Shown: in pieces, positions 60,901-64,000 of the stretch
Layout: each line of letters begins with the position of its first letter
Position numbering within the stretch: position 1 is the stretch's first letter
NCBI RefSeq assembly: GCF_000027125.1
Contig: NC_017626.1
DNA from: Escherichia coli 042
Lineage (GTDB): Bacteria; Pseudomonadota; Gammaproteobacteria; Enterobacterales; Enterobacteriaceae
Reading direction: 5' to 3' (one strand)
Length of the DNA: 64,000 nucleotides
Made by a program: the position numbers

Positions 60901-63900
60901 TAACTCGTTTTGAAGAGGCTAGCAAACTAGCAACAGAGAGACGTGAGGATATTCTTGAACTTGCTGGTGTTGGAACCGTAATGTCTGGTGTACTACATGA
61001 GCTCACTAGGACAACAGGCCACACTCGACAGCTGTTACAAAAGTTATCTAAAGATGAGTCTCCTGGTACTAAAGCTTTATTAACGAAGCTAGATTCGGAA
61101 ATTAAAGCGATCAATACGCGACTTCGACAGTTAGATCCTTTAACACCTTCTGGAAGGCATCGCAAAGAAATATTTAATTTGTCAGCATTGCTGAATACTA
61201 TATTAGAAGGGTATGGAGCTCGCTTTGAACGGCATAATATAATTCCAGAATTCAAAATCTCTGGAGTTGATGATACTCAACCTGTCGAAGTAAATATGGT
61301 ACGTGGTTTTGTTAGCCTTGCAATTGAGAATTTAATTACAAACTCGGTTTATTGGGTTCAGCAGGGGGGGAGAAGTGATCGTCGTATTACTTTAGAACTA
61401 GATGCAGAATCTAGGACATTAACTTTGCGTGATAATGGGCCAGGTATTTCTCCTGCAGATAAAGACAGAATTTTCACTGCAGGATTTACAATGCGACCTA
61501 AAGGGCAGGGTTTGGGTCTTTTCATTGCAGCTGAAGTGGCTACCTATCATGATGCGAGGCTTTTGTTGGACTCTGCTGATGAGGATGGCCGATATAGAGG
61601 TTTTGTCTTGGAGCTTCCAAAGGAATGATTATGGATATTCAAAAGTCATTTACTGAATCAAAAATTTTAAAAGTAGCGATCGTTGACGACGATTTGTCCG
61701 ATTTAATTACTATGGACGATCTGAATACTATAGACAAGGATATTGCCAGTTTGCTTGGTGATCCATCCGATCCTGATTGTGAAAGTTACCATGAACTACT
61801 AGCATCTGAAGGCTATGATCTTGACGAAATAGAAGATCTTGCTCAACCTCTTTCAAATAAATCAATTAGAGAAAAAGCTCCTGAGCGTCTAAAAAATGCG
61901 GCAAATAAAATTATCGAATTTCGTTATGATAACGCCAAGCCAATTAGACGTGTTAAACAATTACTACTGGAAGCTGGCATTTTAGAGGATAATATTCATT
62001 ATTATTTTAGCCCTGAAATACCTAATGAAGAGTTTTATGATCTTTTAGTGATAGATTACTTCTTGGTAAAAAATTCCTCCAAGCATACTTTACCTTTTAT
62101 CAAAAAAATACTCTCAACTCATGAAAAGGCACCAAAGCCTTTACAAGTTATTCTGATGTCGACTTATGAGGCAGAGTTAAAAGCAGAATTCAGGAATATT
62201 CGTCCCGAGATAAGAACTTCAAGCTCAAGAATGAGAATCATGAGCAAACCAATGTCTGATGATGATTTAGTATACTGGCGCTCTGCTTTGTTCCAGTTAT
62301 CTTCAGATCGACAATTTGTCGATGCAGTAGAAAAATTTGTTACTGAAACAATAAGTGGTTTTCAACATGCTGCACAAGAACAAGCTAAAAGATTATGGGA
62401 GCTTGATCTTCAGGCAATGGATATTCTCCATGAAGCTGCAACATCTGATAATGATGATTTTTGCCGCTATGTTGAAGAATGTCTAAGTAGACAATTATTA
62501 ACGGCTCTAGAAGAATGCTCTGGTATAAGAAAATCATTAGGTGTTTTAGGTGAATCATTAATAAAACATAGAGCTAACAACGTAATTGCGCCTGTTACTG
62601 AAATTGGTGATTCGAGGGCGGCAATTAGAACACTAATGAGGAGTATGGAATGGCGTGGGGGAAATACCCCTAGCATGACAGAGTTTAAAGACCCTAAAGA
62701 CAGAGCAAAGTGGATTCAGAAAAATCTGAGATTTGGAATGGTACTAAAATCACCAGATGATAAAAGATGGCTTAATTTAACTCAAGCGTGTGATCTTGCA
62801 CAAACAAAAGAGGATAATTTAAATTCGGTATCTCTCTTGCTTATTAGTGGTTCCTATGCTCGGCCAGTTGGACGTGAGAATGGGCAATCATTAGTGTATT
62901 TGAACACATCATTATCTGATGCAGGTAGTGAGGTTTTGTGTTGGGATGTACGTAATGTTCAAACGCCCTCAATATTTGATTTTGCTCAAACGTTTTATAA
63001 TGGCTGGTCAATTACTGGAGAGCTTCGTCTAGACCAGGCTCAAAGTATAGCTGCTTTATATAGTTCTCGAACTTTAAGGGTTGGTCTTCAAAAAAGGCTA
63101 AGTAGCTGGTGTCTTGATGGTAAAGCTTTATTCATAAACAAATTAAATAACAGCGCTCCAAGTGATAAAATCGAGGGTACGACTATTTCTGGTCATGCGA
63201 TGAATCGTGGTAAACCCGACGAAGTACATATCGATAAAGATAGCATGATAAAGCTTCAAAGAGATTTTCCTAATAGTATTAATAAAATATCTCTGAAATT
63301 ATATATGGGAATGCAGCTAAAGCCTGGTTCAAAAAACCAAGAAGAAGGTATTTTGATTTATTGTGCTGAAAAGCCGGAGAATATAGAATCACTTCGTAGG
63401 GCTATTAATGATAATGATTTTTTAAATCGTGATGTTAATCAAAATAAAGTGGTAATAGCTCTATGGCATAAGTGATTTGATTTATTGCTAATTTATCAGG
63501 TGTATTATTTTCTCAATGTGAGCTAATTATTTCTTTATTAGCTCACATTGATATCCATTTATGTTAAATGATAAGGGGAAATTGTACTATAAAATATAGA
63601 CCAGATTAATTTACCCCTTCTTTTTATTTATGGCAAATTGCGCATGAGCCTCCGCCTTCATCTTCCCCATAAATTTCATCAATATCAATGAGAGTCTCAC
63701 CAGGGCGTAGTGGGTTAATGATTTTTTTCGCTTTGAGTCTGGCTTGCCGCTTTTCAAAATCAGTGACAATTTGAGCAATTCTTTCAGGCTCCTCAAGTGA
63801 CTCTAGTGATTCACCTTTAGTCCAAGTAAAGGGAGAACCATGTTCAATTGCATTTTTTTCATATCGTTTAGCTTCTTCAAATGCCTCTGGGTGACGCTCT

Positions 63901-64000
63901 TTTAATCTTACCCACTCAATCTTTTGTTGGAAGAAGCAAAAAGTACAGCCGCTACGTGATCGCCATTCATAATATTTTGGAAGACCAACTCCTGATGAGT

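What the first reader, a model, noticed from the sequence alone, without database searches (positions are those of the whole stretch)
63624..64000. Unannotated partial minus-strand gene at the window edge, convergent on the novel operon
An open frame running from the window end to a stop at 63624..63626 encodes a hydrophilic C-terminal region with paired cysteine motifs (SGCTFCFF and GGGSCAICHK), suggesting a small Zn-ribbon-like element. It is missed by the ORF track because its start lies outside the window. It may be further island cargo, possibly functionally linked to the two-gene module.
Basis: seen in the sequence. Interest (0 to 1): 0.4.

Follow-up and report, generated by a model that had tools for sequence, protein, structure and literature searches.

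The report
sspD end of a phosphorothioation operon
The cut-off gene at the window edge is the last 124 codons of sspD, the sulfur-inserting enzyme of a three-gene DNA phosphorothioation system (sspBCD). The gene itself is ordinary, but it shows that the neighbouring "novel" kinase/receiver gene pair is a conserved and apparently undescribed partner of that DNA-marking system.

Summary
The minus-strand frame at 63624-63998 is open for 124 codons and ends ...GGGSCAICHK*.

Nine complete E. coli genomes carry the same DNA, and they supply the rest of the gene. It is a 279-aa PP-loop "PAPS reductase family" protein that matches the PADLOC SspD profile end to end (E 1e-140). It is the last gene of sspB (DUF4007)-sspC (1110 aa ATPase)-sspD, the single-strand DNA phosphorothioate (PT) modification module, in a low-GC integrase island at tRNA-Leu leuX.

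The two cysteine motifs are real and conserved, but they are not a zinc ribbon. They belong to a five-cysteine set (C88, C173, C176, C274, C277). The last pair sits on a low-confidence C-terminal tail. The set most likely forms a 3-Cys Fe-S site plus a sulfur-relay pair, as described for DndC; this is inferred.

In 14 of 14 informative contexts (RR616 homologues at 30-100% identity to the E. coli protein, four gene orders, some as one sspBCDA-HK-RR operon), the paraMORC-histidine-kinase/receiver pair lies next to sspBCD. In close sspBCD relatives that lack the pair, the same place holds the known restriction partner sspFGH.

No paper in the searched library links this pair to Ssp. The gene is known; the pairing looks new.

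The parts
63624..64000 (-). 3' part of sspD (codons 156-279 plus the TAA stop; two bases of codon 155). The full gene would run to window-equivalent position 64463. sspC and sspB follow beyond the window, at equivalents 64456-67788 and 67781-68671.
   Evidence: Translation. DNA is 100% identical to NZ_CP048934.1, where the full 279-aa CDS is annotated. PADLOC SspD E 1.3e-140 over the full length. Pfam PAPS_reduct matches the N-terminal half only, which explains why the window fragment gave no Pfam hit.
63933..63947 (-). Codons 173-177 (C-T-F-C-F), holding the first CxxC pair (C173, C176) of the conserved motif RSRSGCxFCFFQ. Proposed Fe-S ligands together with C88, which lies outside the window.
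   Evidence: C173 and C176 are invariant in 33 SspD homologues down to 36% identity and present in 56-57 of 61 representatives. The CxxC aligns with a CxxC in PDB 21fy_C 'PptA'.
63627..63644 (-). C-terminal CxxC-H-K tail (C274, C277). Proposed mobile sulfur-relay cysteine pair.
   Evidence: Invariant in alignment A2. Sits at the extreme C-terminus in 44-48 of 61 representatives. The AF2 model has pLDDT below 50 for 266-279.
63513..63551 (.). Perfect 15-bp inverted repeat with a 9-nt loop, between the convergent stop codons of RR616 and sspD. Possibly a bidirectional terminator hairpin.
   Evidence: the repeat finder I1. The consensus terminator scan did not call it because the stem is AT-rich, so its function is inferred only.
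61625..63475 (+). RR616: an N-terminal CheY-like receiver (D21-D23, D144, S179, K208-P209), a long helical linker, and a roughly 270-aa C-terminal output domain of unknown function.
59244..61628 (+). HK794: an N-terminal paraMORC/MutL-type GHKL ATPase, then an HEF_HK-like H-box (H585), then a C-terminal HATPase_c kinase domain.
   Evidence: Pfam HATPase_c_3 1.4e-15, HATPase_c 4.5e-18, HEF_HK 1.3e-3. The N, G1, G2 and H-box motifs are conserved in the 11 orthologues (invariant or near-invariant; the first N-box could not be scored in two). The family is described in PMC8011034.
57722..58975 (+). Tyrosine integrase of the island.
   Evidence: Pfam Arm-DNA-bind_3, Phage_int_M and Phage_integrase. 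A 71%-identical integrase heads the same five-gene cargo in Pectobacterium.
57438..57522 (+). tRNA-Leu (CAA), leuX: the island insertion site.
   Evidence: ARAGORN. GC drops from about 0.55 to 0.35-0.40 from about 59000 onward and stays low through sspB.

Best explanation
The open frame encodes the C-terminal 124 residues of SspD. SspD is the PP-loop ATP-pyrophosphatase/sulfurtransferase of an SspBCD single-strand DNA phosphorothioation (PT) system. The operon sspB-sspC-sspD runs on the minus strand and ends at 63624. It is carried, together with the convergent HK794-RR616 pair and an integrase, on a low-GC island about 11.5 kb long at tRNA-Leu leuX.

Established for characterised Ssp systems, inferred here: a cysteine desulfurase supplies sulfur. 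The island has no sspA, so this is probably the housekeeping IscS. SspB (a triple-wHTH DNA binder/nickase) and SspC (an ATPase) select sites. SspD uses ATP to activate the DNA backbone and insert sulfur.

Within SspD, C88, C173 and C176 probably hold a [4Fe-4S] cluster, and the flexible C-terminal C274-x-x-C277 tail probably carries the incoming sulfur into the active site. This is inferred by analogy with DndC, TtuA/LarE and the CysH C-terminal tail.

The HK794-RR616 pair is the conserved partner of this modification module. It takes the place that sspFGH takes in sister loci. Proposed mechanism (inferred): the paraMORC-type ATPase domain of HK794 examines DNA for PT status. This controls autophosphorylation at H585 and phosphotransfer to D144 of RR616, which switches on the uncharacterised C-terminal output domain against PT-lacking (foreign) DNA or against the infected cell.
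For: Identity of the gene:
- DNA identical to annotated E. coli genomes.
- PADLOC: SspD 1.3e-140 (residues 4-279 against profile 1-277 of 277), SspC E=0, SspB 6.9e-115. Pfam: DUF4007 4.8e-90, PAPS_reduct 1e-6.
- PP-loop motif SGGKDS at residues 10-15, read directly from the sequence.
- AF2 model with pLDDT 88.9. Its best solved-fold matches are CysH PAPS/APS reductases, MnmA, TtuA and LarE, the last two with [4Fe-4S] clusters.
- Five cysteines invariant to 36% identity.
- Published description of DndC: a PP-loop enzyme with a 3-Cys 4Fe-4S centre plus a cysteine pair (PMC10853773).

Linkage to the two-gene module:
- 14 of 14 informative contexts of RR616 homologues (30-100% identity to the E. 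coli RR616) have sspBCD next to HK-RR. They show four arrangements: convergent; sspBCD-HK-RR; sspBCDA-HK-RR, with a 72-bp sspA-HK gap in L010; and a locus flanked by both HK-RR and sspF/G.
- The same 9 of 5426 E. coli genomes carry both modules.
- Both modules share the same low GC.
- In Xenorhabdus (SspD 92% identical) and Accumulibacter (85%), sspFGH converges on sspD in the same place.
- HK794 catalytic motifs and RR616 receiver residues are conserved (RR616 residues invariant in 79 homologues), and RR616 has a receiver fold.
- The wider HEF_HK/Response_reg_2 family is reported to sit beside DNA-modification (R-M) genes (PMC8011034).
- The authors of PMC8092258 note that 83.9% of sspBCD loci lack sspE or sspFGH, and they predict further partners.
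Against: - No experiment was done. PT modification by this particular operon is inferred from homology.
- sspA is absent from the E. coli island. IscS substitution is known for other E. coli Ssp systems, but I did not check it for this strain.
- Fe-S binding by SspD is inferred. The model cannot show metals, I could not measure Cys-Cys distances, and a structural Zn site is not excluded.
- The output domain of RR616 has no significant match. The only lead is Foldseek hits to MazF/PemK at E 0.056-0.09, with no support from Pfam, a PDB profile search or hhalign. The effector chemistry is therefore unknown.
- Whether the pair is triggered by PT (like SspE) or by its absence (like SspFGH) cannot be told from sequence.
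- Gene neighbourhood shows association, not mechanism. The pair could instead regulate PT modification.
- The 14 contexts were chosen for long contigs among 84 homologue clusters. They are not an exhaustive census.
Confidence: 0.8

Rival explanations
1. One reading: the fragment encodes a small hydrophilic Zn-ribbon-like element, made of two CxxC knuckles, in a separate cargo protein.
For: Two CxxC motifs are present and conserved. Four cysteines could in principle bind Zn. The model cannot exclude the tail docking onto C173/C176.
Against: The fragment is residues 156-279 of a full-length SspD. The motifs are 97 residues apart. The second lies in a segment with pLDDT below 50, not in a folded knuckle. 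A fifth cysteine, C88, is equally invariant. The fold matches PP-loop sulfurtransferases, several of which hold 3-Cys [4Fe-4S] clusters. No Zn-ribbon Pfam family matched.
Confidence: 0.07
2. The gene belongs to a different PAPS-reductase-like system: BREX type 4 (BrxP), Dnd (DndC), or housekeeping sulfate assimilation (CysH).
For: Weaker profile hits to BrxP (7.3e-11) and DndC (5.9e-6). The nearest solved folds are CysH. SspC also matches BrxC profiles (1.2e-106).
Against: The SspD profile is better by about 130 orders of magnitude and is matched end to end. DUF4007 is a separate gene rather than fused as in BrxP, and no PglZ or BrxL lies within 20 kb. There is no DndD or DndE. The SGGKDS PP-loop and five-Cys set differ from E. 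coli CysH, and the sequence match to CysH is insignificant (E 0.48-0.63).
Confidence: 0.03
3. HK794-RR616 is not a restriction or effector partner. It is either an independent defence system that merely shares defence islands with Ssp, or a two-component regulator of ssp expression or PT density.
For: Defence genes do cluster. RR616 has no recognisable nuclease domain. The family was first described as a signalling system induced under stress in Pectobacterium (PMC8011034). DndB-type regulators of PT frequency exist.
Against: Immediate adjacency in 14 of 14 contexts across 30-100% identity and four gene orders, including one co-directional operon behind sspA, is far tighter than island co-residence. 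RR616 has no HTH or other DNA-binding output domain detectable by Pfam. The place it holds is filled by sspFGH in sister loci. Regulation of PT density is not excluded.
Confidence: 0.15

Closest known systems
SspD of SspABCD (Vibrio cyclitrophicus FF75, E. coli 3234/A, Vibrio anguillarum FF-93): single-strand 5'-CpsCA-3' DNA phosphorothioation
   Same: Full-length profile match. 279-aa PP-loop PAPS-reductase-like protein. Operon order sspB (DUF4007)-sspC (about 1100-aa ATPase)-sspD with 8-bp overlaps. No sspA in E. coli versions (PMC8092258).
   Different: The neighbour is neither SspE nor SspFGH; it is a kinase/receiver pair. The modified sequence motif and PT activity are untested for this operon.
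DndC of DndABCDE (double-strand PT)
   Same: PP-loop ATP pyrophosphatase. Conserved cysteines in a 3+2 pattern, like DndC's 3-Cys 4Fe-4S centre plus cysteine pair (PMC10853773).
   Different: Only a weak local profile match (E about 1e-5 over about 60 residues). About 200 residues shorter. Works with SspB/SspC instead of DndD/DndE.
BrxP of BREX type 4
   Same: Homologous PAPS-reductase domain. SspC is homologous to BrxC (PMC12839542; bioRxiv 2024.06.03.597175).
   Different: BrxP is a PAPS-reductase-DUF4007 fusion and works with PglZ and BrxL. Here DUF4007 is a separate gene and PglZ and BrxL are absent.
SspFGH and SspE, the known PT-dependent restriction partners of SspBCD
   Same: Sit immediately beside sspBCD, often convergent on sspD. 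Patchy and exchangeable on closely related sspBCD backbones. Can co-occur: locus L013 has HK-RR plus sspF/G.
   Different: No sequence similarity: PADLOC Ssp E/F/G/H profiles do not match HK794 or RR616. The domain logic differs, being a phosphorelay rather than an NTPase-nuclease or an FtsK-like translocase.
HEF_HK / Response_reg_2 two-component-like pairs (Bellieny-Rabelo et al. 2021, PMC8011034)
   Same: HATPase_c_3 + HEF_HK + HATPase_c kinase next to a receiver-domain protein. First noticed in Pectobacterium. Reported beside DNA-modification genes and related to paraMORC ATPases.
   Different: That paper reports C5-cytosine methyltransferase/Vsr and type I/II R-M neighbours and does not mention DUF4007, PAPS reductase or phosphorothioation. 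The Pfam scores here fall below the gathering thresholds (HEF_HK 19.6 against 24.1; Response_reg_2 22 against 27), so this is a divergent subfamily.
Detocs (defensive two-component system)
   Same: A histidine kinase and receiver-effector logic used for phage defence (from my own knowledge, not tested here).
   Different: Detocs has three genes, with a buffer receiver and a PNP-type ATP nucleosidase effector, and is not tied to a DNA-modification module. No PADLOC hit of that kind was obtained.

Membership tests
SspD (Ssp DNA phosphorothioation) | End-to-end similarity to SspD profiles | tested here: met
   PADLOC PDLC02782 SspD, E 1.3e-140, residues 4-279 against profile 1-277 of 277.
SspD (Ssp DNA phosphorothioation) | PP-loop ATP-pyrophosphatase motif (SGGxDS) and PAPS-reductase fold | tested here: met
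   SGGKDS at residues 10-15, conserved in homologues. Pfam PAPS_reduct 1e-6. Foldseek best hits are CysH/APS reductase and PP-loop enzymes.
SspD (Ssp DNA phosphorothioation) | Encoded in an operon with sspB (DUF4007) and sspC (large ATPase) | tested here: met
   L001 24382-25272 is DUF4007/SspB, 21057-24389 is SspC (E=0), 20225-21064 is SspD. All are on one strand with overlapping stop and start codons.
SspD (Ssp DNA phosphorothioation) | A cysteine desulfurase sulfur donor (SspA, or housekeeping IscS) | tested here: inconclusive
   No Aminotran_5 gene in the E. coli or Pectobacterium islands. sspA is present in the Xanthomonas-type loci. IscS substitution is documented for E. coli Ssp systems (PMC8092258), but iscS of this strain was not examined.
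SspD (Ssp DNA phosphorothioation) | Produces PT-modified DNA (for example d(CpsC) in CpsCA); ATP pyrophosphatase activity | not testable with these tools
   Needs LC-MS/MS of genomic DNA and enzyme assays.
BREX type 4 (BrxP) | PAPS reductase fused to DUF4007 and accompanied by PglZ and BrxL | tested here: not met
   Separate sspB and sspD genes. No PglZ or BrxL in 20 kb on either side. BrxP profile only 7.3e-11.
DndC (Dnd system) | Full-length DndC similarity with DndD/DndE partners | tested here: not met
   DndC profiles match only residues 62-122 at about 1e-5. There are no dndD or dndE neighbours.
Zn ribbon | Two closely spaced CxxC knuckles forming a small folded beta-hairpin module | tested here: not met
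   The CxxC motifs are at 173-176 and 274-277, 97 residues apart. The second is in a tail with pLDDT below 50. No Zn-ribbon family was hit. Metal content is not testable here.
HEF_HK / Response_reg_2 TCS-like pair (for the partner module) | HATPase_c_3 + HEF_HK + HATPase_c protein next to a Response_reg_2 protein | tested here: inconclusive
SspE / SspFGH (known Ssp restriction partners) | Sequence similarity of the neighbouring module to SspE, SspF, SspG or SspH | tested here: not met
   HK794 and RR616 gave no Ssp E/F/G/H hit in PADLOC, whereas true SspF/G/H in L013 and L019 scored from 1.9e-179 down to E=0.

The most novel reading that the evidence does not exclude
SspBCD plus HK794-RR616 is a third, so far undescribed class of phosphorothioate-coupled defence system. 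In it, DNA backbone status is read by a paraMORC-type ATPase and passed on by His-Asp phosphotransfer to a receiver-gated effector of a new fold. Known PT systems instead rely on a nuclease that reads PT directly. If so, the wider HEF_HK/Response_reg_2 family, which mostly sits beside C5-methyltransferases, would be a general phosphorelay restriction arm that can be attached to different DNA modifications.
Probability: 0.45. Interest if true: 0.7.

Novelty: new variant of a known kind. Interest (0 to 1): 0.45.

Why it matters
Taken alone, the edge gene is a routine sspD, already in RefSeq under a generic name. Identifying it matters for how the rest of the island is read.

- The "novel two-gene operon" is not an orphan. 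It is the constant companion of a DNA phosphorothioation module and fills the place of the known restriction partner sspFGH.
- Most sspBCD loci (83.9% in PMC8092258) have no known restriction partner. This pair is a concrete, testable candidate for one of the missing partners.
- It would connect two-component phosphorelay signalling with epigenetic self/non-self discrimination.
- Strains that carry the system are available (for example NCTC9082), and the whole system is only five genes, so the test is straightforward.

Tried and rejected
1. Co-inactivation as genetic evidence. Three E. coli assemblies have both a broken ssp gene and a broken HK794, which looked like evidence that HK-RR is toxic without PT. 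I rejected this. Every indel lies in an A8, G7 or T8 homopolymer, and every substitution in B1.H1.39 falls within or next to a GATC site. That is the signature of nanopore assembly errors, not biology.

2. RR616 output domain as a MazF/PemK-like toxin. The top Foldseek PDB hits are MazF toxins, but weak (E 0.056-0.09, TM to target 0.58-0.67). I keep it only as a weak lead.

3. Pfam on the window fragment alone gave nothing, because the PAPS_reduct model covers only residues 5-100.

4. The genome-contig scan with the RR616 alignment returned only 5 loci, 2 of them at contig ends (L005, L006) and uninformative.

5. A search for an attR direct repeat of the tRNA-Leu 3' end downstream of sspB found no exact match of 12 nt or more. 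The distal island boundary is undefined; an IS110 remnant lies there.

6. The consensus terminator scan found nothing between the convergent genes. Only the AT-rich 15-bp inverted repeat is present.

7. Literature searches for SspBCD + 'histidine kinase', SspABCD + GHKL, PptA + phosphorothioate, and all 38 SspBCD papers since 2021 (30 listed, read by title and abstract start) found no report of this pairing.

8. My first translation, from 64000, was in the wrong frame.
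Full report
**Observation**

The minus-strand frame at window 63624-63998 is open for 124 codons and ends in TAA at 63624-63626. It reads SSGVGLPKYYEWRSRSGCTFCFFQQKIEW...IYGEDEGGGSCAICHK*. My first attempt, from base 64000, was out of frame.

With the local base composition, an open run of this length has a probability of about 7e-5. The ORF lister does not report ORFs that run off the window, which is why it was not listed.

**Extending the gene**

The last 601 bases of the window are 100% identical to nine of 5426 complete E. coli genomes. In NZ_CP048934.1 (locus L001; window position = L001 position + 43399) the frame continues to a 279-aa CDS, WP_000136568.1. RefSeq annotates it as 'phosphoadenosine phosphosulfate reductase family protein'.

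It is the last of three overlapping minus-strand genes:
- a 296-aa DUF4007 protein;
- an 1110-aa 'hypothetical protein';
- this 279-aa protein.

The island begins at tRNA-Leu(CAA) leuX (57438-57522) with a tyrosine integrase, followed by the 794-aa and 616-aa genes. GC falls from about 0.55 to 0.35-0.40 across all five cargo genes.

**Identity**

PADLOC profiles identify the three genes as:
- SspB, 6.9e-115;
- SspC, E = 0 over residues 9-1046;
- SspD, 1.3e-140, residues 4-279 against profile 1-277 of 277.

Pfam gives DUF4007 at 4.8e-90, and PAPS_reduct at 1e-6 on SspD residues 5-100 only. That explains why the window fragment (residues 156-279) matched nothing by itself.

SspD has the PP-loop motif SGGKDS at residues 10-15. 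An AlphaFold2 model built on a 33-sequence alignment has mean pLDDT 88.9. Its nearest solved folds are CysH PAPS/APS reductases, followed by MnmA, TtuA and LarE, the last two being [4Fe-4S] PP-loop sulfurtransferases. The closest solved sequence relative is PDB 21fy 'PptA' (E 2e-8), which shares the C...CxxC pattern.

BrxP and DndC profiles match far more weakly. PglZ, BrxL and DndD/DndE are absent. The operon is therefore of the Ssp type: the module that makes single-strand PT marks such as 5'-CpsCA-3' in characterised systems (PMC8092258; bioRxiv 2024.06.03.597175).

The island has no sspA. E. coli Ssp systems are known to work with the housekeeping IscS. The family is very large: more than 8000 clusters at 90% identity, and 3192 representatives at 50% identity with E<1e-3.

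**The cysteines**

SspD has five cysteines: C88, C173, C176, C274 and C277. All five are invariant in 33 full-length homologues down to 36% identity. Each is present in 44-57 of 61 representatives of similar length, and the last pair always sits two to five residues from the C-terminus.

The two CxxC motifs are 97 residues apart. In the model the last 34 residues have low confidence, with pLDDT below 50 for 266-279. This is not a zinc ribbon.

The homologous DndC is described as a PP-loop enzyme with a 4Fe-4S centre on three cysteines, plus a separate cysteine pair thought to receive sulfur from the desulfurase (PMC10853773). By analogy, I infer that C88/C173/C176 hold an Fe-S cluster and that the C274/C277 tail is a mobile sulfur carrier, comparable to the C-terminal tail of CysH. 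This is inference. I could not measure distances in the model, and a structural Zn site is not excluded.

**Link to the two-gene module**

The 616-aa protein (RR616) has 84 homologue clusters, all in Gammaproteobacteria where a source organism is named. I examined every context with enough flanking DNA that my look-up limits allowed:
- E. coli;
- Pectobacterium;
- Pseudomonas abyssi, P. xantholysinigenes, P. fluorescens and P. fulva;
- Pseudoxanthomonas, Dokdonella, Xanthomonas campestris and a Lysobacterales MAG;
- four metagenome contigs.

In all 14 (RR616 homologues at 30-100% identity to the E. coli protein), the HK-RR pair lies directly beside sspB-sspC-sspD (summarised in 83). Two further loci end at the contig edge and say nothing.

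Four arrangements occur:
- convergent, as in E. coli;
- sspBCD-HK-RR on one strand;
- sspB-C-D-sspA-HK-RR on one strand, with a 72-bp sspA-HK gap in the X. campestris locus L010;
- one locus with HK-RR on one side of sspA-sspBCD and sspF/sspG on the other.

Linkage that survives this much divergence and rearrangement indicates a functional unit. In E. coli the same nine genomes carry both modules.

The reverse does not hold. Judging by cluster counts (84 RR616 clusters against more than 8000 SspD clusters), only a small minority of sspD genes can have this neighbour. In the closest relatives without it, Xenorhabdus (SspD 92% identical) and Accumulibacter (85%), the place convergent on sspD holds sspFGH (SspH E = 0, SspG 4e-194). 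The Pectobacterium SspD, which has HK-RR, is also 92% identical. One sspBCD lineage therefore exchanges partner modules, as reported for SspE and SspFGH.

**What the partner is**

HK794 has three parts:
- an N-terminal MutL/MORC-type GHKL ATPase (HATPase_c_3, 1.4e-15);
- an HEF_HK-like region with the H-box GVLHELTR (H585);
- a C-terminal kinase ATPase (HATPase_c, 4.5e-18).

The N, G1, G2 and H-box motifs are conserved in the eleven orthologues, invariant or near-invariant; the first N-box could not be scored in two sequences that my start-codon call truncated.

The pair belongs, as a divergent member with Pfam scores below the gathering thresholds, to the HEF_HK/Response_reg_2 'two-component-like' family. 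Bellieny-Rabelo et al. 2021 described that family from Pectobacterium. They found it beside R-M genes, especially C5-methyltransferases and Vsr, and related it to paraMORC ATPases (PMC8011034). That paper does not mention DUF4007, PAPS reductase or phosphorothioation. No paper in the searchable library links Ssp to such a pair.

The C-terminal 270 or so residues of RR616 remain unassigned. A weak Foldseek resemblance to MazF/PemK toxins (E 0.056-0.09) had no sequence or profile support.

**Proposed mechanism**

*Shown:* gene identities, operon structure, conserved catalytic residues, and conserved linkage.

*Inferred from established knowledge of Ssp systems:* IscS supplies sulfur, and SspB, SspC and SspD write PT marks on the host DNA.

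*Hypothesis:* the paraMORC domain of HK794 probes DNA. PT status controls autophosphorylation at H585 and transfer to D144 of RR616, which releases its output domain against unmodified invading DNA or against the infected cell.

Sequence cannot tell whether PT activates the pair (as for SspE) or protects against it (as for SspFGH). A purely regulatory role, for example in setting PT density, remains a rival explanation.

**A false lead**

Three E. coli assemblies show frameshifts in both an ssp gene and HK794. This would have been attractive genetic evidence. However, all indels lie in A8, G7 or T8 runs, and all substitutions in one of the assemblies fall within or next to GATC sites. These are typical nanopore errors, so I discard them.

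**Verdict**

The finding is real. The gene itself is an ordinary member of a well-known family (sspD), already annotated generically in RefSeq. The Zn-ribbon idea is not supported. It turns that module into a candidate third type of PT-coupled partner, which appears not to have been described.

Noticed in passing
L016 (NZ_CP146556.1), L017 (NZ_CP122722.1), L018 (NZ_CP122816.1); window equivalents 59573, 61364, and 68099 beyond the window: Three E. coli assemblies annotate split or frameshifted HK794, sspB or sspC. All indels are single-base deletions in A8, G7 or T8 homopolymers, and the B1.H1.39 substitutions all fall within or next to GATC sites. These are most likely nanopore assembly artefacts that created spurious pseudogenes and extra WP_ accessions.
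   Followed up: yes
L009 6303-7430 (Pseudomonas xantholysinigenes CP077095.1): A 375-aa ScoMcrA-like protein (SRA_ScoMcrA domain plus a type IV HNH restriction-enzyme match, 6.8e-20) lies directly upstream of the HK gene in an HK-RR/sspBCD locus. ScoMcrA is a PT-dependent restriction enzyme, so this locus may combine PT writing with two different PT-related effectors.
   Followed up: partly
L013 (JGI 3300077818 contig, 7653-21872): One locus carries HK-RR, a divergent sspA, sspBCD and then sspF (1.9e-179) plus a MAD7-like (SspG-like) gene. Two partner modules therefore flank a single modification module, as reported for SspE with SspFGH.
   Followed up: partly
L007 5481-7233 (Pectobacterium) compared with window 57438-58975: The same five-gene cargo (HK, RR, sspD, sspC, sspB) with a 71%-identical integrase sits at tRNA-Leu(TAA), after tRNA-Gly and tRNA-Cys, in Pectobacterium, but at tRNA-Leu(CAA) leuX in E. 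coli. It is a small integrative island that moves as a unit between Enterobacterales.
   Followed up: partly
window 63513-63551: A perfect 15-bp inverted repeat (TCAATGTGAGCTAAT / ATTAGCTCACATTGA, 9-nt loop) lies midway between the convergent stops of RR616 and sspD. The consensus terminator scan does not call it. It may be a bidirectional terminator or a protein-binding palindrome.
   Followed up: partly
L015 11887-13152 and L020 11093-13356: Other PT-related or defence genes sit beside these loci. A DndB-like 421-aa gene lies next to RR in L015. A GmrSD_N/NsnA-like protein plus a Ser/Thr protein kinase lie between sspD and sspFGH in the Accumulibacter locus.
   Followed up: no
L011/L012 2154-5480: In the most divergent HK-RR locus (RR 30% identical, 699 aa), sspC is called as two ORFs (503 + 600 aa). 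This is either a genuine split or a frameshift. I did not resolve it.
   Followed up: no
PDB 21fy chain C ('PptA', 270 aa): The closest solved sequence relative of SspD (E 2e-8) is an entry named PptA, with the same C...CxxC pattern. No paper in the library explains it, and it was not in the Foldseek copy of the PDB. It may be a newly solved PT-type sulfurtransferase worth comparing.
   Followed up: partly
window 61625-61631: The RR616 ORF can start at an ATG overlapping the HK794 stop (ATGA at 61625-61628; 616 aa). RefSeq starts it two codons later (614 aa). Either way the genes are tightly coupled. sspB/sspC and sspC/sspD overlap by 8 bp.
   Followed up: no
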